NCBI RefSeq assembly: GCF_057098645.1
Contig: NZ_CM169472.1
DNA: 64,000 bases
Direction: 5' to 3' (one strand)
The position numbers and the translations under genes are program-made. The notes under the pieces are model-generated. The model ran no database searches and had not been told where the DNA came from. It saw nothing but the letters and a program-made list of their open reading frames with translations. Positions within the stretch are counted from its first letter, which is position 1. Every line of letters starts with the position of its first letter. Shown here one piece after another: positions 40,494-55,749 of this stretch.

Positions 40494-40623
40494 AGTGTGG
40501 TAGAATATCAGCTTACTATTGCTTTACGAAAGCGTATCCGGTGAAATAAAGTCAACCTTTAGTTGGTTAATGTTACACCAACAACGAAACCAACACGCCA
40601 GGCTTATTCCTGTGGAGTTATAT

Positions 40624-40953
40624 ATGAGCGATAAAATTATTCACCTGACTGACGACAGTTTTGACACGGATGTACTCAAAGCGGACGGGGCGATCCTCGT
40701 CGATTTCTGGGCAGAGTGGTGCGGTCCGTGCAAAATGATCGCCCCGATTCTGGATGAAATCGCTGACGAATATCAGGGCAAACTGACCGTTGCAAAACTG
40801 AACATCGATCAAAACCCTGGCACTGCGCCGAAATATGGCATCCGTGGTATCCCGACTCTGCTGCTGTTCAAAAACGGTGAAGTGGCGGCAACCAAAGTGG
40901 GCGCACTGTCTAAAGGTCAGTTGAAAGAGTTCCTCGACGCTAACCTGGCGTAA
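40624..40953 (+). CDS. trxA: thioredoxin 1
   Basis: Start at [13 protein letters not shown], 109 aa, active site WCGPC. Confidence 0.97.
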
Positions 40954-42554: not shown

Positions 42555-42590
42555 AAAACGCCACGTGTTTACGTGGCGTTTTGCTTTTAT
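42555..42590 (+). terminator. intrinsic terminator after rho
   Basis: Hairpin aaacgccacgt-gttt-acgtggcgttt followed by a T-rich run. Confidence 0.8.
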
Positions 42591-42778
42591 ATCTGTAATC
42601 TTAATGCCGCGCTGGCGATGTTAGGAAAATTCCTGGAATTTGCTGGCATGTTATGCAATTTGCATATCAAATGGTTAATTTTTGCACAGGGCTGGTGGAT
42701 TCGGAACGGACTTTCCCTTCTGAATAAAGGTCTTCGAGGTTATACTTCTGCTAATAATTTTCTCTGAGAGCATGCATT

Positions 42779-43882
42779 GTGAATTTACTGACAGTGAGTA
42801 CTGATCTCATCAGTATTTTTTTATTCACGACACTGTTTCTGTTTTTTGCCCGTAAGGTGGCAAAAAAAGTCGGTTTAGTGGATAAACCAAACTTCCGCAA
42901 ACGTCACCAGGGATTGATACCTCTCGTTGGGGGGATTTCGGTTTACGCAGGGATTTGCTTCACGTTCGGAATTGTCGATTACTATATTCCGCATGCATCT
43001 CTCTATCTCGCTTGTGCCGGTGTGCTTGTTTTCATTGGCGCGCTGGATGACCGTTTTGATATCAGCGTAAAAATCCGTGCCACCATACAGGCCGCTGTTG
43101 GCATTGTTATGATGGTGTTCGGCAAACTTTATCTCAGTAGCCTGGGTTATATCTTTGGCTCCTGGGAGATGGTGCTCGGACCGTTTGGTTACTTCCTGAC
43201 GCTATTTGCCGTCTGGGCGGCCATTAATGCGTTCAACATGGTTGATGGCATTGATGGCTTGCTGGGCGGGTTGTCCTGCGTCTCGTTTGCAGCAATCGGT
43301 ATGATTTTGTGGTTCGACGGGCAAACCAGCCTCGCAATCTGGTGCTTTGCGATGATCGCCGCCATCCTGCCATACATCATGCTTAACCTTGGTATCCTGG
43401 GTCGCCGCTACAAAGTCTTTATGGGTGATGCGGGCAGTACGCTGATTGGTTTTACCGTGATCTGGATCCTGCTCGAAACGACCCAGGGCAAAACCCATCC
43501 CATCAGCCCGGTTACCGCTTTGTGGATAATCGCCATTCCGCTAATGGATATGGTGGCGATTATGTACCGTCGCCTGCGTAAAGGCATGAGCCCATTCTCT
43601 CCTGACCGTCAGCATATTCACCATTTGATCATGCGTGCCGGGTTTACTTCCCGCCAGGCGTTTGTGCTGATTACCCTTGCCGCAGCACTGCTCGCTTCCA
43701 TTGGCGTGCTGGCAGAATATTCTCATTTTGTCCCGGAGTGGGTCATGCTGGTGCTCTTTTTGCTAGCATTCTTCCTCTATGGATATTGCATTAAGCGTGC
43801 CTGGAAAGTTGCTCGCTTTATTAAGCGCGTAAAACGCAGACTGCGTAGAAATCGTGGTGGCAGCCCCAATTTAACCAAATAA
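42779..43882 (+). CDS. wecA: UDP-GlcNAc:undecaprenyl-phosphate GlcNAc-1-phosphate transferase
   Basis: 367-aa polytopic membrane protein with GTG start; first gene of the common-antigen cluster. Confidence 0.93.
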   Translation: MNLLTVSTDLISIFLFTTLFLFFARKVAKKVGLVDKPNFRKRHQGLIPLVGGISVYAGICFTFGIVDYYIPHASLYLACAGVLVFIGALDDRFDISVKIRATIQAAVGIVMMVFGKLYLSSLGYIFGSWEMVLGPFGYFLTLFAVWAAINAFNMVDGIDGLLGGLSCVSFAAIGMILWFDGQTSLAIWCFAMIAAILPYIMLNLGILGRRYKVFMGDAGSTLIGFTVIWILLETTQGKTHPISPVTALWIIAIPLMDMVAIMYRRLRKGMSPFSPDRQHIHHLIMRAGFTSRQAFVLITLAAALLASIGVLAEYSHFVPEWVMLVLFLLAFFLYGYCIKRAWKVARFIKRVKRRLRRNRGGSPNLTK

Positions 43883-43893
43883 ATGAGGATGTG

Positions 43894-44940
43894 ATGACAC
43901 AACCAATGCCTGGGAAACCGGCCGAAGACGCTGAAAATGAACTGGATATTCGTGGGTTGTTTCGTACCTTGTGGGCTGGGAAGCTATGGATTATTGGCAT
44001 GGGGCTGGCGTTTGCGTTAATCGCGCTGGCGTATACGTTTTTTGCTCGTCAGGAGTGGAGCTCGACGGCGATTACCGATCGTCCAACGGTGAATATGCTG
44101 GGGGGATATTACTCGCAGCAGCAATTTTTGCGTAACCTGGATGTCCGTTCAAACATGGCTTCTGCCGACCAACCATCGGTCATGGACGAAGCCTATAAAG
44201 AGTTTGTTATGCAACTGGCCTCGTGGGATACCCGCAGAGAGTTCTGGCTGCAAACCGACTATTACAAGCAGCGGATGGTGGGCAACAGCAAAGCCGATGC
44301 GGCGTTGCTGGATGAAATGATTAACAACATCCAGTTTATCCCCGGAGACTTTACCCGCGCGGTCAATGACAGCGTGAAGCTTATTGCCGAAACCGCGCCT
44401 GACGCTAATAACCTGTTACGTCAGTATGTTGCTTTTGCCAGCCAGCGTGCAGCCAGCCATCTGAATGATGAGCTGAAAGGCGCATGGGCGGCACGCACCA
44501 TCCAGATGAAAGCTCAGGTGAAGCGTCAGGAAGAGGTGGCGAAAGCCATCTACGACCGCCGGATGAACAGCATTGAGCAGGCGCTGAAAATTGCTGAGCA
44601 GCATAATATTTCGCGCAGTGCGACAGATGTGCCTGCCGAGGAATTACCTGATTCAGAAATGTTCCTGCTTGGGCGTCCAATGCTCCAGGCTCGACTGGAA
44701 AATTTACAGGCCGTCGGTCCGGCCTTTGATCTCGACTATGATCAGAATCGGGCCATGTTAAACACCCTGAATGTTGGTCCAACCCTGGATCCGCGTTTTC
44801 AGACCTATCGCTATTTGCGTACGCCGGAAGAACCGGTAAAACGCGATAGCCCACGTCGTGCCTTCCTGATGATTATGTGGGGCATTGTCGGGGGGCTGAT
44901 CGGGGCTGGTGTCGCATTAACCCGCCGTTGCTCGAAATAG
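43894..44940 (+). CDS. wzzE: common-antigen chain-length regulator
   Basis: 348 aa from the second Met (MTQPMPGK); transmembrane segments at both ends. Confidence 0.9.
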
Positions 44941-44995
44941 CAACACTGCTGCGGTGAGCGCAAAGGTGCTCGCCGCTTATTCGAAGAGAATCGAT

Positions 44996-46126
44996 GTGAA
45001 AGTACTGACTGTATTTGGTACGCGCCCGGAAGCCATCAAGATGGCTCCGTTGGTGCATGCGTTGGCAAAAGATCCTTTTTTTGAGGCTAAAGTTTGCGTC
45101 ACTGCGCAGCATCGGGAGATGCTCGATCAGGTGCTGAAACTCTTTTCCATTGTACCTGACTACGATCTCAACATAATGCAGCCAGGACAGGGCCTGACAG
45201 AGATAACCTGTCGGATTCTGGAAGGGCTAAAACCTATTCTTGCCGAGTTCAAACCAGACGTCGTGCTGGTTCACGGCGATACGACGACGACGCTGGCAAC
45301 CAGCCTGGCGGCGTTTTATCAGCGTATTCCTGTTGGTCACGTTGAGGCTGGTTTACGCACGGGCGATCTCTATTCGCCGTGGCCGGAAGAGGCTAACCGT
45401 ACATTGACCGGGCATCTGGCGATGTATCATTTCTCCCCAACCGAAACTTCCCGGCAAAACTTGCTGCGTGAAAACGTTGCGGATAGCCGAATCTTCATTA
45501 CCGGTAATACAGTCATTGATGCACTGTTATGGGTGCGTGACCAGGTGATGAGCAGCGACACGCTGCGTTCAGAACTGGCGGCAAATTACCCGTTTATCGA
45601 CCCCGATAAAAAGATAATTCTGGTGACCGGTCATAGGCGTGAGAGTTTCGGTCGTGGCTTTGAAGAAATCTGCCACGCGCTGGCAGACATCGCCACCACG
45701 CACCAGGACATCCAGATTGTCTATCCGGTGCATCTCAACCCGAACGTCAGAGAGCCGGTCAATCGCATTCTGGGGCATGTGAAAAATGTCATTCTGATCG
45801 ATCCCCAGGAGTATTTACCGTTTGTCTGGCTGATGAACCACGCCTGGCTGATTTTGACCGACTCAGGCGGCATTCAGGAAGAAGCGCCTTCGCTGGGGAA
45901 ACCGGTGCTGGTGATGCGCGATACCACTGAGCGTCCGGAAGCGGTGACGGCGGGTACGGTGCGTCTGGTAGGCACGGATAAGCAGCGAATTGTCGAGGAA
46001 GTGACGCGTCTTTTAAAAGACGAAAACGAATATCAAACTATGAGCCGCGCCCATAACCCGTATGGTGATGGTCAGGCATGCTCTCGCATTCTGGAAGCGT
46101 TAAAAAATAATCGGATATCACTATGA
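44996..46126 (+). CDS. wecB: UDP-N-acetylglucosamine 2-epimerase
   Basis: GTG start at [18 protein letters not shown] (376 aa); the ORF track starts 14 codons earlier. Confidence 0.9.
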
Positions 46127-47385
46127 GTTTTGCGACCATTTCTGTTATCGGACTGGGTTACATCGGGCTGCCTACAGCAGCAGCGTTTGCCTCACGGCAA
46201 AAACAGGTGATTGGTGTCGATATCAACCAACACGCGGTTGATACCATCAATCGTGGCGAAATCCATATCGTCGAGCCTGATTTGGCGAGCGTAGTAAAAA
46301 CTGCCGTAGAAGGCGGTTTTTTACGAGCGAGCACGACGCCAGTTGAAGCGGATGCCTGGCTGATTGCTGTACCCACGCCGTTTAAAGGCGATCATGAGCC
46401 AGATATGACCTACGTTGAATCGGCTGCTCGCTCCATTGCGCCAGTGCTGAAAAAAGGCGCGCTGGTGATCCTTGAATCCACCTCGCCGGTGGGGTCAACC
46501 GAGAAGATGGCAGAATGGTTAGCAGAGATGCGTCCGGATCTCACTTTCCCACAGCAGGTGGGCGAGCAGGCGGACGTCAACATTGCTTACTGCCCGGAAC
46601 GCGTGTTACCGGGCCAGGTTATGGTCGAGCTGATTAAAAACGATCGCGTGATTGGTGGTATGACGCCGGTTTGTTCGGCCCGCGCCAGCGAACTGTACAA
46701 AATTTTCCTCGAAGGTGAGTGTGTCGTCACTAACTCGCGGACGGCGGAAATGTGTAAGCTCACCGAAAACAGCTTCCGCGATGTGAATATCGCTTTTGCT
46801 AATGAATTGTCGCTGATTTGTGCCGATCAGGGGATTAACGTCTGGGAACTGATTCGCCTGGCGAATCGTCACCCTCGCGTTAATATTCTTCAGCCCGGCC
46901 CTGGCGTGGGCGGTCACTGCATTGCTGTTGATCCGTGGTTTATCGTGGCACAGAACCCCCAGCAGGCGCGGCTTATCCGTACCGCGCGCGAAGTGAACGA
47001 TCACAAACCGTTCTGGGTTATCGATCAGGTGAAAGCGGCGGTGGCTGATTGCCTGGCGGCTACCGATAAACGCGCCAGTGAACTGAAAATCGCCTGCTTT
47101 GGTCTGGCGTTTAAACCGAATATTGATGACCTGCGCGAAAGCCCGGCGATGGAAATCGCTGAACTGATCGCCCAGTGGCATAGCGGCGAAACTCTGGTTG
47201 TTGAGCCTAACATCCACCAGTTGCCGAAAAAACTGACCGGGCTTTGTACTCTGGCGCAGCTTGACGAGGCGCTGGCAACGGCAGACGTGCTGGTGATGCT
47301 GGTCGATCATAGTCAGTTCAAAGTTATCAATGGCGACAATGTCCATCAGCAGTATGTCGTCGATGCCAAAGGAGTCTGGCGCTGA
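46123..47385 (+). CDS. wecC: UDP-N-acetyl-D-mannosamine dehydrogenase
   Basis: 420 aa, N-terminal Rossmann GxGxxG ([10 protein letters not shown]); 4-bp overlap with wecB. Confidence 0.95.
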
Positions 47386-48452
47386 TGAGAAAAATTCTGA
47401 TAACAGGTGGTGCCGGGTTTATTGGCTCGGCGCTGGTGCGTTATATCATCAACGAAACGAGCGACGCGGTGGTAGTGGTCGATAAGCTGACCTACGCCGG
47501 AAACCTGATGTCGCTGGCACCGGTCGCGCAAAGCGAGCGCTTTTCCTTTGAGAAAGTTGATATCTGCGATCGGGCAGAACTGGCGCGCGTATTCACTGAG
47601 CATCAGCCAGACTGTGTCATGCATCTGGCAGCCGAAAGCCATGTTGACCGTTCTATTGACGGCCCGGCAGCGTTTATTGAAACCAACATTGTCGGGACTT
47701 ATACATTGCTTGAAGCGGCGCGGGCTTACTGGAATGCGCTGACGGAAGATAAAAAATCAGCGTTCCGTTTTCATCATATCTCCACTGACGAAGTATATGG
47801 TGACCTGCACTCGACGGATGATTTCTTCACTGAAACCACGCCGTATGCGCCGAGCAGCCCTTATTCCGCGTCAAAAGCCAGCAGCGACCATCTGGTGCGC
47901 GCCTGGCTGCGAACCTATGGTATGCCAACGCTTATCACCAACTGCTCGAATAACTACGGTCCTTACCACTTTCCGGAAAAACTGATCCCGCTGATGATCC
48001 TCAACGCGCTGGCGGGTAAATCGCTGCCGGTATATGGCAACGGGCAGCAAATCCGTGACTGGCTGTATGTGGAAGATCACGCCCGCGCGCTGTATTGCGT
48101 GGCGACCACCGGGAAAGTCGGTGAAACCTATAATATTGGTGGTCACAACGAGCGTAAGAATCTCGATGTTGTGGAAACCATTTGCGAGCTGCTGGAAGAA
48201 CTGGCTCCGAACAAGCCGCACGGCGTGGCGCACTATCGTGACCTGATCACCTTTGTCGCTGACCGTCCGGGGCATGATCTGCGTTATGCCATTGATGCTT
48301 CGAAAATTGCCCGTGAACTTGGCTGGCTGCCGCAGGAAACCTTTGAAAGTGGAATGCGTAAAACGGTTCAGTGGTATCTGGCTAATGAAAGCTGGTGGAA
48401 GCAGGTGCAGGACGGCAGCTATCAGGGCGAGCGTTTAGGTCTGAAAGGCTAA
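47385..48452 (+). CDS. rffG: dTDP-glucose 4,6-dehydratase
   Basis: 355 aa, [11 protein letters not shown]-binding motif; 1-bp overlap with wecC. Confidence 0.95.
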
Positions 48453-48470
48453 TTTTCAGCGGAGGCAAAC

Positions 48471-49352
48471 ATGAAAGGTATTATCCTGGCGGGCGGTTCC
48501 GGCACCCGATTGCATCCGATTACGCGCGGCGTATCGAAGCAACTGTTGCCGATTTACGATAAACCAATGATTTACTATCCGCTGTCGGTGCTGATGCTGG
48601 CCGGTATCCGCGAAATTCTCATCATCACTACGCCGGAAGATAAAGGTTATTTCCAGCGCCTGCTGGGCGATGGTAGTGAGTTCGGTATCCAGCTGGAATA
48701 TGCCGAACAGCCCAGCCCGGACGGTCTGGCGCAGGCCTTTATCATCGGTGAAACCTTCCTTAATGGTGAACCTTCTTGTCTGGTGCTGGGCGATAACATC
48801 TTCTTCGGTCAGGGCTTCAGTCCGAAGCTGCGTCATGTTGCGGCGCGCACGGAAGGGGCGACGGTTTTTGGCTATCAGGTGATGGACCCGGAACGCTTTG
48901 GCGTGGTGGAGTTTGACGACAATTTCCGCGCTATCTCGCTGGAAGAAAAGCCAAAACAGCCGAAGTCAAACTGGGCGGTGACCGGGCTTTATTTCTACGA
49001 CAGTAAAGTCGTGGAGTACGCAAAGCAGGTGAAGCCGTCGGAGCGTGGTGAACTGGAGATTACCTCCATCAACCAGATGTACCTCGAGGCGGGCAACCTG
49101 ACCGTTGAACTGCTCGGGCGCGGATTTGCCTGGCTGGACACTGGCACTCACGACAGCCTGATTGAAGCCAGCACCTTTGTACAGACGGTGGAAAAACGAC
49201 AGGGCTTTAAGATTGCCTGCCTGGAAGAGATCGCCTGGCGTAACGGCTGGCTCGATGACGAGGGTGTGAAGCGTGCTGCCAGTTCATTAGCGAAAACTGG
49301 CTACGGCCAATATCTGCTGGAGTTACTTCGTGCCCGTCCGCGCCAGTATTGA
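48471..49352 (+). CDS. rffH: glucose-1-phosphate thymidylyltransferase
   Basis: 293 aa, GGSGTRL motif. Confidence 0.95.
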
Positions 49353-50004
49353 GCCACTAACCTGGGAAAACGCCTTCTTTGGTGTTAACAGCGCCATCGT
49401 GCGCATTACGTCTGAAGCACCGCTCCTGACGCCAGACGCGTTAGCGCCGTGGTCACGGGTGCAGGCCAAAATTGCGGCATCAAATACGGGTGAACTGGAT
49501 GCCCTGCAACAGCTGGGATTCTCCCTGGTAGAAGGTGAAGTTGATTTGGCGCTACCCGTGAACAATGCCAGTGATAGCGGTGCTGTAGTGGCACAAGAGA
49601 CCGATATTCCCGCATTACGTCAGTTAGCCAGCGCCGCATTTGCGCAAAGCCGTTTTCGTGCGCCGTGGTATGCGCCTGACGCCAGCAGTCGCTTTTATGC
49701 ACAGTGGATTGAAAATGCCGTGCGCGGCACCTTTGATCATCAATGTCTGATTTTACGTGCGGCGTCCGGCGATATTCGCGGCTATGTCTCTTTACGGGAA
49801 CTCAATGCGACAGATGCGCGAATTGGCCTGCTGGCTGGACGCGGTGCAGGTGCTGAGCTGATGCAAACGGCGCTAAACTGGGCGTATGCTCGCGGTAAAA
49901 CAACTTTGCGGGTGGCGACCCAAATGGGCAACACCGCCGCGCTTAAACGATACATACAAAGTGGTGCGAATGTAGAAAGCACCGCGTACTGGTTATACAG
50001 GTGA
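49330..50004 (+). CDS. wecD: dTDP-fucosamine acetyltransferase (GNAT family)
   Basis: 224-aa ORF overlapping the rffH 3' end by 23 bp; start position uncertain, a shorter product from an internal start is possible. Confidence 0.8.
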
Positions 50005-50008
50005 TCAC

Positions 50009-51139
50009 ATGATTCCATTTAACGCACCGCCGGTGGTGGGAACCGAACTCGACTATATGCAGTCGGCAATGGGTAGCGGCAAACTGTGTGGCGATGGCGG
50101 TTTTACCCGTCGCTGCCAGCAGTGGCTGGAGCAACGTTTTGGCAGCGCCAAAGTGTTACTGACGCCGTCCTGCACCGCTTCGCTGGAGATGGCGGCGCTG
50201 CTGCTCGATATCCAGCCTGGCGATGAAGTGATCATGCCGAGCTACACCTTTGTCTCCACCGCCAATGCCTTTGTGCTGCGTGGCGCAAAAATCGTTTTTG
50301 TGGATGTTCGCCCGGACACCATGAACATCGACGAAACGCTGATTGAAGCGGCGATCACCGACAAAACGCGCGTTATCGTGCCGGTCCATTACGCGGGTGT
50401 GGCCTGCGAAATGGACACCATTATGGCGTTGGCAAAAAAGCATAATTTGTTTGTGGTAGAAGATGCCGCTCAGGGCGTGATGTCCACTTACAAAGGGCGT
50501 GCACTGGGAACCATTGGTCATATTGGCTGCTTTAGCTTCCATGAAACCAAAAACTACACGGCGGGTGGTGAAGGCGGCGCGACGCTGATTAACGATAAAG
50601 CGTTAATCGAACGAGCCGAGATCATCCGTGAAAAGGGCACTAACCGCAGCCAGTTCTTCCGTGGTCAGGTCGATAAATATACCTGGCGCGATATTGGCTC
50701 CAGCTATTTGATGTCCGATCTGCAAGCTGCGTACCTGTGGGCGCAACTGGAAGCAGCGGATCGTATCAACCAGCAACGTCTGGCGCTGTGGCAAAACTAC
50801 TACGATGCGTTAGCACCTCTGGCGAAAGCCGGGCGTATCGAGCTGCCGTCGATTCCCGATGGCTGCGTGCAGAACGCGCATATGTTCTACATTAAACTGC
50901 GGGATATTGATGACCGGAGCGCGTTGATTAACTTTCTGAAAGAAGCGGAAATTATGGCGGTGTTCCATTACATTCCGCTGCACGGTTGCCCTGCGGGGGA
51001 ACGCTTTGGTGAGTTCCACGGTGAAGATCGCTACACCACCAAAGAGAGCGAGCGCCTGCTGCGCCTGCCGCTGTTCTACAACCTGTCGCCCGTCAATCAG
51101 CGTACGGTAATTGCGACTTTGTTGAACTACTTCTCCTGA
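50009..51139 (+). CDS. wecE: dTDP-4-keto-6-deoxyglucose aminotransferase
   Basis: 376 aa, DegT/DnrJ-type PLP enzyme. Confidence 0.95.
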   Translation: MIPFNAPPVVGTELDYMQSAMGSGKLCGDGGFTRRCQQWLEQRFGSAKVLLTPSCTASLEMAALLLDIQPGDEVIMPSYTFVSTANAFVLRGAKIVFVDVRPDTMNIDETLIEAAITDKTRVIVPVHYAGVACEMDTIMALAKKHNLFVVEDAAQGVMSTYKGRALGTIGHIGCFSFHETKNYTAGGEGGATLINDKALIERAEIIREKGTNRSQFFRGQVDKYTWRDIGSSYLMSDLQAAYLWAQLEAADRINQQRLALWQNYYDALAPLAKAGRIELPSIPDGCVQNAHMFYIKLRDIDDRSALINFLKEAEIMAVFHYIPLHGCPAGERFGEFHGEDRYTTKESERLLRLPLFYNLSPVNQRTVIATLLNYFS

Positions 51140-51140
51140 T

Positions 51141-52391
51141 ATGTCGTTGGCGAAAGCGTCCTTGTGGACGGCGGCCAGTACACTGGTCAAGATTGGGGCC
51201 GGGTTACTGGTCGGTAAGTTGCTGGCGGTGTCATTTGGTCCTGCGGGGCTTGGGCTGGCGGCAAATTTCCGCCAGTTGATTACCGTGCTCGGCGTGCTTG
51301 CCGGGGCTGGCATCTTTAACGGTGTAACCAAATACGTTGCCCAGTACCATGATAATCCGCAACAGCTGCGCCGCGTGGTCGGCACTTCATCAGCGATGGT
51401 ACTTGGTTTCTCTACGCTGATGGCGCTGGTTTTTGTGCTGGCAGCAGCGCCAATCAGCCAGGGATTGTTTGGTAATACCGACTATCAGGGGCTGGTACGT
51501 TTAGTGGCGTTGGTGCAAATGGGGATTGCCTGGGGCAACCTGTTACTGGCGTTGATGAAAGGCTTTCGCGATGCCGCAGGTAATGCGTTATCTCTGATTG
51601 TTGGCAGCTTGATTGGCGTTCTTGCGTACTACGTCAGTTACCGTTTGGGCGGTTATGAAGGGGCGTTGCTGGGTCTGGCGCTGATTCCCGCGCTGGTGGT
51701 AATTCCTGCCGCCATCATGTTGATCAAACGTGGTGTCATCCCGTTAAGCTATCTGAAACCCAGCTGGGATAACGGTCTGGCAGGGCAGTTGAGCAAATTT
51801 ACGCTCATGGCGTTGATTACGTCGGTGACCTTGCCTGTTGCTTACATCATGATGCGTAAACTGCTGGCGGCGCAGTATAGCTGGGATGAAGTGGGGATCT
51901 GGCAAGGGGTGAGCAGTATTTCCGATGCCTACCTGCAATTTATTACGGCATCGTTCAGCGTATATTTACTGCCCACGTTGTCGCGGCTAACGGAAAAGCG
52001 CGATATCACCCGGGAAGTGGTTAAATCGCTGAAATTCGTCTTACCGGCAGTGGCGGCGGCGAGTTTTACCGTCTGGTTGCTGCGTGATTTTGCTATCTGG
52101 CTGCTGTTGTCGAATAAATTTACCGCTATGCGCGATCTCTTTGCCTGGCAGTTGGTGGGTGATGTGTTAAAAGTGGGCGCTTATGTCTTTGGTTATCTGG
52201 TGATCGCCAAAGCTTCACTGCGGTTTTATATTCTGGCGGAAGTCAGCCAGTTCACTTTATTGATGGTATTTGCCCACTGGCTAATCCCTGCGCATGGTGC
52301 ACTGGGCGCGGCGCAGGCCTATATGGCAACCTATATCGTCTATTTTTCTCTTTGTTGTGGCGTGTTTTTACTCTGGCGTAGGCGGGCATGA
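51141..52391 (+). CDS. wzxE: common-antigen lipid III flippase
   Basis: 416-aa polytopic membrane protein. Confidence 0.93.
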
Positions 52392-53467
52392 CTGTACTGA
52401 TTCACGTACTGGGATCGGATATCCCTCACCATAACCGAACCGTTTTGCGGTTTTTCAATGACGCGCTGGCCGCGACGAGCGAGCACGCGCGCGAGTTTAT
52501 GGTTGTTGGCAAGGACGACGGCTTAAGTGATAGCTGTCCGGCGCTTTCTGTGCAATTTTTCCCTGGGAAAAAATCGCTGGCGGAAGCGGTCATCGCGAAA
52601 GCAAAAGCTAACCGTCAGCAGCGTTTTTTCTTCCACGGTCAGTTCAATCCCACACTGTGGCTGGCTTTGCTGAGTGGTGGCATTAAGTCCCGCCAGTTTT
52701 TCTGGCATATCTGGGGGGCAGATCTGTATGAGCTTTCCAGTGGCTTGAGATATAAGCTTTTTTACCCGCTACGTCGCCTGGCGCAAAAGCGAGTCGGCTG
52801 TGTATTTGCCACCCGCGGTGATTTGAGCTTTTTTGCCAAAACGCATCCAAAGGTGCGGGGCGAACTGCTGTACTTCCCGACGCGGATGGATCCTTCTCTC
52901 AATACGATGGCGAACGATCGGCAACGTGAAGGGAAAATGACCATTCTGGTGGGGAACTCCGGCGACCGCAGCAATGAGCATATTGCTGCCTTGCGCGCCG
53001 TTCATCAGCAATTTGGCGATACGGTAAAAGTGGTGGTGCCGATGGGATATCCGCCTAATAACGAAGCGTACATCGAGGAAGTTCGTCAGGCGGGGCTGGA
53101 GTTATTCAGCGAAGAAAATCTGCAAGTTCTGAGCGAAAAACTGGAATTTGACGCCTATCTGACGCTACTTCGTCAGTGCGATCTCGGTTACTTTATTTTT
53201 GCCCGCCAGCAGGGCATCGGCACGCTGTGCTTGTTGATTCAGGCGGGCATTCCTTGTGTGCTTAACCGGGAAAATCCGTTCTGGCAGGATATGACGGAAC
53301 AGCATTTGCCGGTGCTGTTTACTACCGACGATCTCAACGAGGATATTGTGCGTGAAGCGCAGCGCCAGTTGGCGTCGGTGGATAAAAACACCATTGCCTT
53401 CTTTAGCCCGAACTATCTGCAAGGCTGGCAGCGGGCGCTGGCTATTGCCGCCGGGGAGGTTGCATGA
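52388..53467 (+). CDS. wecF: TDP-Fuc4NAc:lipid II Fuc4NAc transferase
   Basis: 359 aa; 4-bp overlap with wzxE. Confidence 0.93.
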
Positions 53468-54816
53468 GTCTGCTGCAATTCAGTGGCCTGTTTGTTGTCT
53501 GGCTGCTCTGCACGCTGTTTATTGCCACGCTGACCTGGTTTGAGTTTCGCCGTGTGCGCTTTAACTTCAATGTCTTCTTTTCATTGCTGTTTTTGCTCAC
53601 CTTTTTCTTCGGCTTCCCGCTGACCAGCGTGCTGGTATTTCGCTTTGATGTTGGTGTCGCGCCGCCAGAAATCTTGTTGCAGGCGTTGCTTTCTGCGGGC
53701 TGCTTCTACGCGGTTTACTATGTCACCTACAAAACCCGCCTACGCAAACGCGTTGCTGATGTACCGCGCCGTCCGCTGTTTACCATGAACCGCGTGGAGA
53801 CCAATCTTACGTGGGTGATCCTGATGGGTATCGCGCTGGTAAGCGTCGGCATCTTCTTCATGCACAACGGCTTTTTGCTGTTCCGGCTTAACTCCTACAG
53901 TCAGATCTTTTCCAGTGAAGTCTCCGGCGTGGCGTTAAAACGCTTCTTTTACTTTTTCATCCCGGCGATGCTGGTGGTCTACTTTCTGCGCCAGGACAGC
54001 AAAGCGTGGCTGTTTTTCCTCGTCAGCACGGTCGCCTTTGGCCTGCTGACTTACATGATTGTCGGCGGTACTCGCGCCAATATCATCATCGCATTCGCTA
54101 TCTTCCTGTTTATCGGCATTATTCGCGGCTGGATTTCACTGTGGATGCTGGCGGCGGCGGGCGTGCTGGGGATTGTTGGCATGTTCTGGCTGGCGCTAAA
54201 ACGCTACGGAATGAACGTGAGCGGCGATGAGGCGTTCTATACATTTCTCTATCTCACTCGCGACACCTTCTCGCCGTGGGAGAATCTGGCGTTGCTGTTG
54301 CAGAACTACGACAACATCGACTTCCAGGGACTGGCGCCAATTGTCCGCGATTTCTATGTCTTTATCCCTTCCTGGCTGTGGCCGGGGCGCCCGAGTCTGG
54401 TGCTGAACTCCGCCAACTACTTTACCTGGGAAGTGCTGAATAACCACTCCGGTCTGGCGATCTCGCCTACGCTTATTGGTTCACTGGTTGTTATGGGCGG
54501 CGTGCTGTTTATTCCTCTGGGGGCGATTGTGGTTGGTCTGATCATCAAATGGTTCGACTGGCTGTATGAGCTGGGCAACCGCGAAACTAATCGCTATAAG
54601 GCTGCGATATTGCACAGTTTCTGCTTCGGGGCAATCTTCAATATGATCGTGCTGGCGCGTGAAGGGCTGGATTCGTTTGTCTCACGCGTAGTCTTTTTTA
54701 TCGTGGTCTTCGGCGCATGTCTGATGATCGCAAAACTGTTGTACTGGCTTTTTGAAAGCGCCGGACTCATTCATAAACGTACAAAATCATCGCTCCGGAC
54801 GCAGGTTGAAGGATAA
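53464..54816 (+). CDS. wzyE: common-antigen polymerase
   Basis: 450-aa polytopic membrane protein; 4-bp overlap with wecF. Confidence 0.93.
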
Positions 54817-54818
54817 CA

Positions 54819-55559
54819 ATGAATAACAACACCACGGCACCGACCTATACGCTGCGTGGCTTACAGTTGATTGGTTGGCGTGATATGCAGCACGCCCTCG
54901 ATTATCTGTTTGCTGACGGGCAGCTTAAGCAGGGAACGCTGGTTGCCATTAATGCTGAAAAAATGCTGACCATTGAAGATAACGCCGAGGTCAGGGAGTT
55001 AATTAACGCTGCCGAATTTAAATATGCGGATGGCATCAGCGTTGTACGTTCAGTACGTAAAAAGTACCCGCAGGCGCAGGTTTCCCGCGTTGCCGGTGCC
55101 GATCTCTGGGAAGAGCTGATGGCGCGCGCAGGCAAAGAAGGGACGCCAGTATTTCTTGTGGGCGGTAAACCTGAAGTGCTGGCGCAAACTGAAGCTAAAC
55201 TGCGCAACCAATGGAATGTGAATATCGTTGGCAGTCAGGATGGTTATTTTAAACCCGAGCAGCGTCAGGCGCTGTTTGAACGCATTCATGCCAGCGGAGC
55301 GCAAATCGTCACCGTTGCGATGGGATCGCCAAAGCAGGAGATCTTCATGCGCGACTGCCGTCTGGTGCATCCAGATGCGCTGTATATGGGCGTTGGCGGG
55401 ACTTACGATGTTTTCACCGGTCACGTAAAACGCGCACCGAAAATCTGGCAAACGCTGGGACTGGAGTGGCTCTACCGCCTGCTTTCGCAGCCGAGCCGCA
55501 TTAAGCGTCAGCTTCGTTTGCTGCGTTATTTACGCTGGCACTACACCGGCAACCTCTGA
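54819..55559 (+). CDS. wecG: UDP-ManNAcA transferase
   Basis: 246 aa, last gene of the cluster. Confidence 0.93.
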
Positions 55560-55576
55560 TTTTCCTCTCTTTGTAA

Positions 55577-55616
55577 AGCGACGGAGTGGTCACTTCGTCG
55601 CCTGTCTGCTTTTTTA
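55577..55616 (+). terminator. putative intrinsic terminator after the common-antigen cluster
   Basis: Inverted repeat gcgacg ... cgtcgc followed by ctgcttttttatt. Confidence 0.6.
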
Positions 55617-55749
55617 TTACACAAAGCATTCAAATTTTTAATGCTTTATTTGCCATTTCTCCTGAATTACGAAAACATTCGCAACACTCGATGTACCCAT
55701 AACGATAACCGGTAACACCGGAAAGCATGCAAACACAACACGAGGATTT

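What the first reader, a model, noticed from the sequence alone, without database searches (positions are those of the whole stretch)
42779..55559. Complete, tightly packed common-antigen cluster with overlapping gene junctions
All twelve genes from wecA to wecG are present and intact. Several junctions overlap (wecB/wecC by 4 bp, wecC/rffG by 1 bp, wzxE/wecF by 4 bp, wecF/wzyE by 4 bp), which implies translational coupling. The wecD start is ambiguous: the long frame overlaps rffH by 23 bp. Nothing here is novel, but it confirms this part of the window is core and not accessory.
Basis: partly seen in the sequence, partly recalled or inferred. Interest (0 to 1): 0.1.

Follow-up and report, generated by a model that had tools for sequence, protein, structure and literature searches.

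The report
Standard E. coli common-antigen gene cluster
This stretch is the ordinary, fully intact twelve-gene operon that makes enterobacterial common antigen, present in virtually every E. coli; it holds nothing new except a small, evolutionarily conserved RNA hairpin between its second and third genes that nobody seems to have discussed.

Summary
Window 42779-55559 (+) is the wec/rff enterobacterial common antigen operon. It is 100% identical to E. coli O145:H28 genomes and 98.9% identical to K-12, with the same twelve gene lengths, no internal stops, and junctions of +11, +55, -4, -1, +18, -23, +4, +1, -4, -4 and +2 nt. All twelve products reach their NCBIfam cut-offs. The cluster is single-copy in 5424 of 5426 complete E. 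coli genomes, so it is core.

Two points of interpretation need adjusting. First, the wecD start is not really ambiguous. GTG 49330 is supported by the crystal structure, a full-length family model, N-terminal conservation, the best Shine-Dalgarno match, and a start codon at the same position in eight genera. Two of those genera lack rffH altogether. Second, translational coupling is plausible at the -4 to +4 junctions, which are conserved in eight genera and include three downstream genes without a Shine-Dalgarno sequence. It is untested, and it is unlikely at the -23 overlap.

One extra finding: the only sizeable internal gap (wzzE-wecB) holds a hairpin at 44951-44976. It covaries across 42 Enterobacteriaceae sequences and sits 7 nt upstream of a published K-12 RNA 3' end. 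Its function is unknown.

The parts
42555..42592 (+). rho intrinsic terminator (12-bp GC-rich stem plus T-run). It marks the upstream boundary of the wec transcription unit.
   Evidence: terminator scan. A K-12 Term-seq 3' end is listed at the same sequence.
42593..42778 (+). wecA promoter/leader region. The literature places four transcription start sites, a PdeL repressor site and an NsrR site here in K-12.
   Evidence: The 239-nt rho-wecA spacer differs from K-12 at 4 positions. PMC8669472 and PMC12212991. The sites themselves were not mapped here.
42779..43882 (+). wecA (rfe): UDP-GlcNAc:undecaprenyl-phosphate GlcNAc-1-phosphate transferase, 367 aa, GTG start
   Evidence: TIGR02380, 575 bits against a cut-off of 326; protein identical to K-12
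43894..44940 (+). wzzE: ECA chain-length co-polymerase, 348 aa
   Evidence: (NF008645, 694 bits against a cut-off of 332)
44951..44976 (+). Conserved intercistronic RNA hairpin: 11-bp stem GCGGUGAGCGC / GUGCUCGCCGC with loop AAAG. It starts 10 nt after the wzzE stop codon.
   Evidence: spacer -24.2 kcal/mol, z -3.3; covariation in 8 and in 42 sequences; single copy; no Rfam family; K-12 RNA 3' end 7 nt downstream
44983..45006 (+). Block GAAGAGAATCGATGTGAAAGTACT holding the wecB ribosome-binding region and GTG start. It is invariant except for one T/C position in eight independently sampled genera. It includes a small invariant UCGA/UCGA stem.
44996..46126 (+). wecB (rffE): UDP-GlcNAc 2-epimerase, 376 aa, GTG start
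   Evidence: (TIGR00236 aligns residues 1-372 to model 1-365 of 366)
46123..47385 (+). wecC (rffD): UDP-ManNAc dehydrogenase, 420 aa. Its start overlaps the wecB stop (ATGA) and it has no Shine-Dalgarno match.
47385..48452 (+). rffG: dTDP-glucose 4,6-dehydratase (ECA-type paralogue of rfbB), 355 aa. Its start overlaps the wecC stop (TGATG).
   Evidence: (NF007582, 829 bits against a cut-off of 698)
48471..49352 (+). rffH: glucose-1-phosphate thymidylyltransferase (ECA-type paralogue of rfbA; PGAP labels it rfbA), 293 aa
   Evidence: (TIGR01207, 534 bits; below the cut-off of the RfbA-specific NF012024)
49330..50004 (+). wecD (rffC): dTDP-fucosamine acetyltransferase, 224 aa, GTG start lying 23 nt inside rffH
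50009..51139 (+). wecE (rffA): dTDP-4-keto-6-deoxyglucose transaminase, 376 aa
51141..52391 (+). wzxE: lipid III(ECA) flippase, 416 aa. It starts 1 nt after the wecE stop and has no Shine-Dalgarno match.
52388..53467 (+). wecF (rffT): Fuc4NAc transferase, 359 aa. Its start overlaps the wzxE stop (ATGA).
53464..54816 (+). wzyE: ECA polymerase, 450 aa. Its start overlaps the wecF stop (ATGA) and it has a strong GGAGG.
54819..55559 (+). wecG (rffM): ManNAcA transferase, 246 aa
55578..55601 (+). 10-bp hairpin 18 nt after the wecG stop. A U6 run begins only 9 nt after the stem. It is a possible weak 3' boundary element.
   Evidence: the 85-nt region folded, which also includes a second small stem: -20.3 kcal/mol, z -3.0. 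The strict terminator scan did not call it. No K-12 Term-seq 3' end is listed there.

Best explanation
The region is the canonical wec/rff operon of Escherichia coli (here the O145:H28 allele). It makes the trisaccharide repeat of enterobacterial common antigen (GlcNAc-ManNAcA-Fuc4NAc) on undecaprenyl phosphate.

The pathway below is established knowledge, summarised in PMC7439462. WecA starts lipid I. WecB and WecC make UDP-ManNAcA, and WecG adds it to give lipid II. RffH, RffG, WecE and WecD make dTDP-Fuc4NAc, and WecF adds it to give lipid III. WzxE flips the unit across the inner membrane, WzyE polymerises it, and WzzE sets chain length.

The twelve genes are transcribed as one unit from promoters in the rho-wecA spacer. 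PdeL represses those promoters and an NsrR site lies there (PMC8669472).

Shown here: the identity, order, intactness and core status of the genes, and a junction geometry that is the same in eight Enterobacteriaceae genera.

Inferred: the seven junctions of -4 to +4 nt favour translational coupling. This applies most to wecC, wecE and wzxE, which have no Shine-Dalgarno match and probably depend on ribosomes arriving from the upstream gene.

wecD starts at GTG 49330 inside rffH and uses its own GGAG, so the 23-nt overlap is a dual-coding stretch rather than a coupling device.

The single real gap, between wzzE and wecB, carries a structurally conserved sense-strand RNA hairpin. It most likely defines or protects a 3' end of the wecA-wzzE part of the transcript. 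This last step is hypothesis.
For: - Identity: 100% to O145:H28 genomes, with annotation of all twelve genes. Gene lengths and junctions are the same as K-12.
- Family matches: all twelve proteins score above their curated NCBIfam cut-offs, eight over their full length and four over all but a few terminal residues.
- Core status: 5424 of 5426 genomes, one copy each.
- Junctions: -4 at wecB/wecC, wzxE/wecF and wecF/wzyE and +1 at wecE/wzxE in all eight genera. -23 at rffH/wecD in all six genera that have rffH.
- Shine-Dalgarno energies: none for wzxE, -3.3 for wecC and -3.8 for wecE, against a background of -2.7 +/- 2.1 kcal/mol.
- wecD start, structural evidence: the PDB 2FS5/2FT0 chain covers residues 2-224. 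The N-terminal domain is described as residues 3-69 (PMC4964394). NF008212 aligns residues 1-224 to model 1-231 of 232.
- wecD start, conservation: A5, L10, W12, E13, F16, F17, S21, A22 and R25 are invariant in 14 homologues. The alternative start residues V24 and V44 are not invariant.
- wecD start, comparative: a GTG (TTG in Superficieibacter) sits at the homologous codon in eight genera. These include Yokenella and Superficieibacter, which lack rffG/rffH and where the start overlaps the wecC stop.
- wecD start, ribosome binding: GGAGU scores -5.9 kcal/mol 6 nt upstream, against -2.8 and -2.2 for the alternative starts.
- Operon and regulators: PMC8669472, PMC12212991.
- Hairpin.
Against: - Nothing contradicts the identification.
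- Coupling is untested for this operon, and no paper found here addresses it.
- rffG, rffH and wzyE have strong Shine-Dalgarno sequences and could initiate independently.
- Direct evidence for the WecD N-terminus (a peptide or an initiation-complex footprint) was not found. The INRI-seq table of alternative starts lists only a weak out-of-frame peak at -13 for wecD and says nothing about the annotated start.
- Across the hairpin, K-12 RNA coverage drops only about 26% (176 to 130), and the intrinsic-terminator score is 2.88, under the authors' threshold of 3.0. Any effect on expression may therefore be small.
Confidence: 0.95

Rival explanations
1. The short overlaps are a passive by-product of genome compaction. 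Start and stop codons drift into the common NTGA or TGATG arrangement, and each gene is translated independently. There is no functional coupling.
For: -4 and -1 are the commonest spacings of co-directional gene pairs in all prokaryotes (PMC12548453), so finding them here is not special. rffG (-8.2), wzyE (-11.6) and wecF (-6.2 kcal/mol) have usable Shine-Dalgarno sequences. No experiment on this operon was found.
Against: The spacings are identical in eight genera, although the sampled rffH/wecD junction region is only 88% identical across three of them. wecC, wecE and wzxE have no Shine-Dalgarno match above background, yet they encode required enzymes. Measured coupling is most efficient at exactly these spacings.
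Confidence: 0.25
2. wecD really begins at an internal GTG, either codon 24 (window 49399, 201 aa) or codon 44 (window 49459, 181 aa). In that case there is no overlap with rffH.
For: The older family model TIGR02382 (191 positions) begins at residue 44, which is a GTG codon. The K-12 protein record is at version 2, so it has been revised at least once. The catalytic GNAT domain is residues 70-218.
Against: Residues 3-69 form an ordered domain in the crystal structure. Residues 5-25 are as conserved as the rest of the protein, while V24 and V44 vary (L or A at position 24, L at position 44). A start codon is kept at codon 1 in eight genera, with a GTG-to-TTG switch and a different upstream gene in two of them. 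Shine-Dalgarno support exists only for codon 1. No alternative initiation peak at +69 or +129 is listed by INRI-seq or, in the same table, by Meydan et al..
Confidence: 0.03
3. The wzzE-wecB hairpin is a weak intrinsic terminator (attenuator). It lowers transcription of the ten downstream genes relative to wecA-wzzE. Under this reading it is not a processing or stability element.
For: It has a GC-rich 11-bp stem followed in E. coli by UUAUUCG. The K-12 RNA 3' end lies exactly 7 nt after the stem in two growth conditions. There is no significant Rho dependence (Rho score 1.37). Coverage drops about 26% across the site.
Against: The intrinsic-terminator score is 2.88, under the authors' threshold of 3.0. 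The tail is not U-rich in other genera (CAAUCCG, CUAAUCG, CCAAUCG) although the stem is conserved. The authors assign 3' ends of this kind to RNA processing.
Confidence: 0.3

Closest known systems
E. coli K-12 MG1655 wec/rff operon (b3784-b3794 plus b4481; rfe-wzzE-rffEDGHCA-wzxE-rffT-wzyE-rffM)
   Same: Same twelve genes, order, strand, gene lengths, start codons, every junction spacing and flanking genes (rho upstream, thrP/yifK and argX-hisR-leuT-proM downstream). 98.9% nucleotide identity. Six proteins are identical.
   Different: 16 amino-acid substitutions (WecB 3, RffG 2, WecE 1, WecF 6, WzyE 3, WecG 1). One base in the wzzE-wecB hairpin turns a G-C pair into G-U (window 44967). The exact window sequence of this 60-nt stretch is shared by 38 genomes, including all five O145 records listed.
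wec clusters of Salmonella, Klebsiella, Citrobacter, Trabulsiella and Kluyvera
   Same: Twelve genes in the same order between rho and the amino-acid permease. The -23 rffH/wecD overlap and the -4 overlaps are identical. The wecD start is GTG. A hairpin sits in the wzzE-wecB spacer.
   Different: WecD is 74-81% identical at protein level. The wecC/rffG junction is -4 instead of -1 in three genera. The wzyE/wecG junction varies from -1 to +11. The hairpin sequence differs but its pairing is kept.
Ten-gene wec clusters (Yokenella regensburgei, Superficieibacter electus)
   Same: Same genes and spacings for the ten shared genes. The WecD N-terminus is homologous.
   Different: rffG and rffH are absent. 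wecD follows wecC directly with a -4 overlap (GTGA or TTGA). dTDP-glucose and its 4-keto derivative must then come from genes elsewhere (inference).
Intercistronic stem-loops that set differential expression within operons by selective RNA processing and stabilisation or by partial termination. Examples: the Clostridium cip-cel and ABC-transporter operons (PMC4423207, PMC9045158; only the titles and opening lines of their abstracts were seen) and, from my own knowledge, E. coli malEFG and pap.
   Same: A stable hairpin in a spacer between co-transcribed genes, with an RNA 3' end just downstream of it. The upstream gene (wzzE) encodes an oligomeric protein that is plausibly needed in excess (this last point is inference).
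   Different: No measurement here of segment half-lives or protein ratios. The coverage drop in K-12 is small. It is not a REP element, being single-copy. It is confined to Enterobacteriaceae, since five more distant loci show no comparable stem.

Membership tests
Enterobacterial common antigen (wec/rff) gene cluster | Twelve genes wecA-wzzE-wecB-wecC-rffG-rffH-wecD-wecE-wzxE-wecF-wzyE-wecG, co-oriented and contiguous | tested here: met
Enterobacterial common antigen (wec/rff) gene cluster | Each product matches its specific curated family model above the cut-off, over all or nearly all of its length | tested here: met
   All twelve score above their curated cut-offs. Eight align over their full length. 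WecA (residues 8-351 of 367), WecB (1-372 of 376), RffH (2-286 of 293) and WecG (8-246 of 246) lack only a few terminal residues. For rffH the model reached is the general rmlA equivalog TIGR01207.
Enterobacterial common antigen (wec/rff) gene cluster | Chromosomal position between rho and yifK/thrP plus the argX-hisR-leuT-proM tRNA genes | tested here: met
Enterobacterial common antigen (wec/rff) gene cluster | Open reading frames intact (reference length, no internal stop) | tested here: met
Enterobacterial common antigen (wec/rff) gene cluster | The cell actually makes ECA (phosphoglyceride-linked, LPS-linked and cyclic forms) | not testable with these tools
   Needs immunoblot or mass spectrometry on the strain.
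Translationally coupled gene pairs | Stop-start spacing in the efficient range (-4 to +3 nt) | tested here: met
   Six of eleven junctions (-4, -1, +1, -4, -4, +2), plus one at +4. The range comes from PMC12548453. It is not met for rffH/wecD (-23), wzzE/wecB (+55), rffG/rffH (+18) or wecA/wzzE (+11).
Translationally coupled gene pairs | Translation of the downstream gene depends on translation of the upstream gene | not testable with these tools
   Needs reporter fusions with premature stop codons.
Full-length (224-aa) WecD/RffC dTDP-fucosamine acetyltransferase | [quoted passage not shown] | tested here: met
   (NF008212, residues 1-224)
Full-length (224-aa) WecD/RffC dTDP-fucosamine acetyltransferase | Start codon with a ribosome-binding site at codon 1, conserved across genera | tested here: met
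Full-length (224-aa) WecD/RffC dTDP-fucosamine acetyltransferase | Observed N-terminus of the native protein | not tested
   Nothing on the annotated start was found in the supplements that could be searched.
Intrinsic (Rho-independent) terminator (considered for the wzzE-wecB hairpin) | GC-rich stem-loop | tested here: met
Intrinsic (Rho-independent) terminator (considered for the wzzE-wecB hairpin) | U-rich tract immediately 3' of the stem | tested here: not met
   The tail is UUAUUCG in E. coli and is not U-rich in most other genera. The scan did not call it. The published score is 2.88, below 3.0.
REP/BIME dispersed palindromes (considered for the hairpin) | Many copies per genome | tested here: not met
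   Median of one place per E. coli genome.
Any described RNA family (Rfam 15) | Covariance-model match | tested here: not met
   The only match inside the cluster at E <= 1 is a chance-level trypanosomatid snoRNA hit within wzzE. Nothing matches at the hairpin.
RfaH/ops-controlled polysaccharide operon | ops element GGCGGTAG in the leader on the sense strand | tested here: not met
   No + strand match in the window.

The most novel reading that the evidence does not exclude
The hairpin in the wzzE-wecB spacer (window 44951-44976) may be an undescribed cis-acting RNA element of the wec operon, maintained by selection across Enterobacteriaceae. It would create or protect the 3' end of a wecA-wzzE transcript segment, or insulate the weak, sequence-invariant wecB initiation region. 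Either way it would uncouple the amounts of WecA and WzzE from those of the ten downstream enzymes. Selection on the structure is well supported here. The regulatory consequence is not.
Probability: 0.45. Interest if true: 0.3.

Novelty: already known. Interest (0 to 1): 0.12.

Why it matters
As a finding it matters only as a landmark. It shows that this part of the window is conserved core chromosome, with a functional-looking ECA pathway in an O145:H28 strain.

The work adds two small things. First, it gives a clear, multi-source answer to the wecD start question: the long GTG frame is right and the 23-nt overlap with rffH is real. Second, it points to a conserved RNA hairpin between wzzE and wecB that coincides with a mapped RNA 3' end in K-12. 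The papers seen here do not discuss it. The hairpin could bear on how the stoichiometry of the ECA machinery is set, and it should be kept intact when wzzE or wecB deletions are designed.

Tried and rejected
- RBS-sequestering structure at the rffH/wecD overlap (RNA-unfolding coupling): the 100-nt fold is no better than shuffles (z +1.04). Rejected.
- ops/JUMPStart element upstream of wecA: none on the + strand.
- Known RNA families inside the cluster: the only match is a chance-level snoRNA hit within wzzE.
- Long antisense ORFs (246 aa at 46606-47346, 191 aa at 50810-51385): no Pfam match. Treated as chance shadow frames.
- Extra synonymous constraint in the 23-nt overlap: only a modest signal, 3 of 6 invariant codons against 31 of 226 elsewhere in rffH (Fisher p = 0.04).
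- Direct start-site data for wecD: the Meydan et al. preprint has no supplements held. The TRAINSPOTTER supplements have no entry. INRI-seq lists only alternative sites.
- Papers not held: the WecD structure paper PMC1540030 and the identifier I recalled for the Li et al. synthesis-rate paper.
- Hairpin outside Enterobacteriaceae: five loci with WzzE 38-54% identical keep rho-wecA-wzzE-wecB-wecC synteny and the GTG wecB start, but show no comparable stem. The element therefore looks family-level.
- Term-seq 3' end inside wecA (+30): it lies in a hairpin loop rather than after the U-run, so I did not treat it as a terminator.
- Not done: I did not identify the one E. coli genome without the cluster or the one with partial coverage.

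Full report
**What is there**

The + strand of window 42779-55559 carries twelve back-to-back open reading frames. A 13.3-kb query covering them is 100% identical to several E. coli O145:H28 chromosomes. It is found at >=80% coverage in 5424 of 5426 complete E. coli genomes, with a median of one place per genome.

The RefSeq annotation of the identical record and of K-12 MG1655 names the genes wecA, wzzE, wecB, wecC, rffG, rffH (labelled rfbA by PGAP), rffC/wecD, rffA/wecE, wzxE, rffT/wecF, wzyE and wecG/rffM. They lie between rho and thrP(yifK)/argX-hisR-leuT-proM.

All twelve products score above the curated NCBIfam cut-offs for exactly these functions. Eight align over their full length, and WecA, WecB, RffH and WecG lack only a few terminal residues.

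**Checking the stated details**

Gene by gene against K-12, every length and start codon is the same and there is no internal stop. Nucleotide identity is 98.9%. Only 16 of 4230 residues differ, and six proteins are identical.

The junctions are +11, +55, -4, -1, +18, -23, +4, +1, -4, -4 and +2 nt. Only 91 of 12,781 nt are non-coding.

**The wecD start**

The long frame begins at GTG 49330, the first possible canonical start after an in-frame TAG at 49288. Several independent lines support it.

- The crystallised protein (PDB 2FS5/2FT0) covers residues 2-224. A GNAT review describes residues 3-69 as an ordered N-terminal partial-GNAT domain (PMC4964394). A protein starting at codon 24 or 44 would truncate that domain.
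- NCBIfam NF008212 aligns residues 1-224 to model positions 1-231 of 232. Only the older TIGR02382 model starts at residue 44, which happens to be a GTG codon.
- In 14 homologues of 73-90% identity, residues A5, L10, W12, E13, F16, F17, S21, A22 and R25 are invariant. V24 and V44, the alternative starts, are not.
- At the DNA level, a start codon sits at the homologous codon in all eight genera examined. It is GTG in seven and TTG in Superficieibacter. In Yokenella and Superficieibacter, rffG and rffH are absent and the wecD start instead overlaps the wecC stop as GTGA or TTGA. The start position is therefore kept whatever gene lies upstream.
- GGAGU lies 6 nt upstream (-5.9 kcal/mol against the anti-Shine-Dalgarno sequence). 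The two internal GTGs score at background, -2.8 and -2.2, where the background is -2.7 +/- 2.1.
- The INRI-seq table of alternative initiation sites lists nothing at +69 or +129 for wecD, either in that study or in its column for Meydan et al..

The 23-nt overlap is identical in length in all six genera that have rffH. It is 22/23 invariant among E. coli, Salmonella and Klebsiella. Extra synonymous constraint is only modest (p = 0.04). I could not find a direct N-terminal peptide or initiation footprint for the annotated start.

**Translational coupling**

A 2025 review states three relevant points (PMC12548453). The -4 (NTGA) and -1 spacings are the commonest in prokaryotes. Coupling is most efficient between -4 and +3 nt. 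No coupling was seen at -25 nt.

Seven of the eleven junctions here fall between -4 and +4. The -4 overlaps at wecB/wecC, wzxE/wecF and wecF/wzyE, and the +1 spacing at wecE/wzxE, are identical in all eight genera.

Three downstream genes (wecC, wecE, wzxE) have no Shine-Dalgarno match above background. They are the best candidates for dependence on ribosomes arriving from upstream. In contrast, rffG, rffH and wzyE have strong Shine-Dalgarno sequences.

The -23 junction is the one least likely to be coupled by re-initiation, and the RNA around it shows no RBS-sequestering structure (z +1.04). Coupling is thus a reasonable inference for part of the operon, but nothing found here tests it.

**How the cluster works**

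The pathway is established knowledge (PMC7439462).

- WecA makes lipid I.
- WecB and WecC supply UDP-ManNAcA, which WecG transfers.
- RffH, RffG, WecE and WecD make dTDP-Fuc4NAc, which WecF transfers.
- WzxE flips the unit, WzyE polymerises it, and WzzE controls chain length.

The wecA promoter region drives the 12-gene operon. It has four mapped transcription start sites, binds the repressor PdeL and carries an NsrR site (PMC8669472; PMC12212991). In the window this is the 239-nt rho-wecA spacer. It begins with the strong rho terminator at 42555-42582 and differs from K-12 at four positions. There is no ops element.

**An unreported feature: the wzzE-wecB hairpin**

The 55-nt wzzE-wecB spacer is the one real gap in the cluster. 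It folds into an 11-bp hairpin at 44951-44976, and the spacer folds at -24.2 kcal/mol (z -3.3).

The same position holds a hairpin of different sequence in all eight genera obtained independently through WecD. On that alignment, 8 of 11 pairs change on both sides, 90% of cells are paired against 29-57% in slid controls, and RNAalifold predicts the same helix.

A scan of one genome per species with the conserved wecB start block gave 73 Enterobacteriaceae loci. On 42 distinct sequences, all 11 pairs show double-sided changes, and all five measures exceed every one of 500 shuffles. Pairing in the helix is 89.8%; in the slid controls the whole structure pairs at only 20-56%.

Frequent G-U pairs point to the sense-strand RNA. 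The element is single-copy in E. coli, so it is not a REP element. It matches no Rfam family.

The supplementary Term-seq tables of Adams et al. 2021 list an RNA 3' end at K-12 3970120 in two conditions (PMC7815308). That position equals window 44983. It is 7 nt after the stem and 13 nt before the wecB GTG. The Rho score is 1.37 (not significant) and the intrinsic-terminator score is 2.88, below the authors' threshold of 3.0. RNA coverage drops from 176 to 130 across the site. The main text does not discuss the site.

The tail after the stem is not U-rich in most genera. In five more distant Enterobacterales loci (WzzE 38-54% identical) no comparable stem is evident.

My reading is that selection on the structure is well supported. 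A role in forming or protecting a 3' end of the wecA-wzzE segment, or a weak attenuator role, is a hypothesis. Any effect may be small.

The O145:H28 allele carries G-U where K-12 has G-C at one pair (window 44967). The exact window sequence of this 60-nt stretch is shared by 38 genomes, including all five O145 records listed.

**Verdict**

The finding is correct and ordinary. The cluster is the known ECA operon, intact and core. The wecD start should be regarded as settled in favour of the long frame, subject to a direct N-terminal observation. The coupling claim should be limited to the -4 to +4 junctions and marked as inferred. The conserved hairpin is the only item that might repay further work.

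Noticed in passing
window 44951-44976 (hairpin) and 44983-45006 (conserved wecB start block): A structurally conserved, covarying sense-strand RNA hairpin lies in the wzzE-wecB spacer. It is followed by a 24-nt block that varies at only one position in the eight independently sampled genera. A published K-12 Term-seq 3' end maps 7 nt after the stem. The hairpin is not in Rfam and is not a repeat element, and the papers seen here do not discuss it.
   Followed up: yes
L005 6742-8675 (Yokenella regensburgei), L009 6742-8675 (Superficieibacter electus), L085 3541-5793 (genome record OZ024666.1): Some Enterobacterales have a ten-gene wec cluster without rffG/rffH, in which wecD follows wecC directly (a -4 overlap in L005 and L009). 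The 3.46-Mb genome behind L085 also has only an 84-aa wecB fragment, which suggests decay of the pathway there.
   Followed up: partly
window 42800-42822 (inside wecA codons 8-15): A hairpin ACUGAU-CUC-AUCAGU followed by a U7 run looks like a terminator inside the first 45 nt of wecA. K-12 Term-seq lists an 'internal' 3' end at +30 (window 42808), which is in the loop rather than after the U-run. Yokenella shows a compensatory U-A to A-U change that also alters two amino acids.
   Followed up: partly
window 55578-55601 and 55560-55749: A 10-bp hairpin lies 18 nt after the wecG stop, but its U6 run starts only 9 nt after the stem. In the K-12 Term-seq rows quoted, 3970120 is followed directly by 3980881 (LB 0.4) or 3982585 (second condition), so no 3' end is listed at this hairpin. 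Position 3980881 is in the thrP Shine-Dalgarno region. The 3' boundary of the operon is therefore not sharply defined.
   Followed up: partly
window 46606-47346 (-) and 50810-51385 (-): Long antisense ORFs of 246 and 191 aa lie inside wecC and across the wecE/wzxE junction. Neither has a Pfam match. They are most likely chance shadow frames in GC-rich coding sequence.
   Followed up: yes
window 49330-50004 versus the rest of 42779-55559: wecD is 100% identical to K-12 at the nucleotide level (0 of 675 differences). Neighbouring genes differ by 0.7%, and identity falls from 99.7% (wecA) to 97.5% (wecF, wzyE). This looks like a recombination mosaic. Only 83 genomes share the whole cluster at >=99% identity.
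   Followed up: no
window 48471-49352: PGAP labels rffH as 'rfbA'. The protein reaches the general rmlA model but falls below the cut-off of the RfbA-specific model NF012024 (445 against 588 bits). rffG, in contrast, reaches the RffG-type model. This is a naming quirk, not a biological difference.
   Followed up: partly
window 49330-50004: The crystallised WecD (PDB 2FS5/2FT0) differs from this protein and from K-12 at two residues. The PDB has V where this protein has A79, and G where it has S119. The structure therefore came from another E. coli allele.
   Followed up: no
window ~43880-44000 (wecA/wzzE junction and wzzE 5' end): Two literature items. A genomic SELEX study places an RpoN-holoenzyme binding site at the rfe/wzzE junction (PMC8743547). 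An Hfq genomic SELEX study reports an antisense RNA opposite the wzzE 5' end and 11 Hfq aptamers within the operon (PMC2887942). Neither was examined in the sequence.
   Followed up: no
K-12 coordinates 3972512, 3978580, 3969107 (window about 47375, 53443, 43970): The INRI-seq table of alternative initiation sites lists in-vitro peaks at an in-frame CTG 9 nt upstream of rffG, an ATT 20 nt upstream of wzyE, and an out-of-frame GTG at +77 in wzzE. Their significance is unknown.
   Followed up: no
window 40554-40653: There is an Rfam match to the TrxA 5' UTR thermometer (78.8 bits, above the gathering score) upstream of trxA. It lies outside the finding.
   Followed up: no
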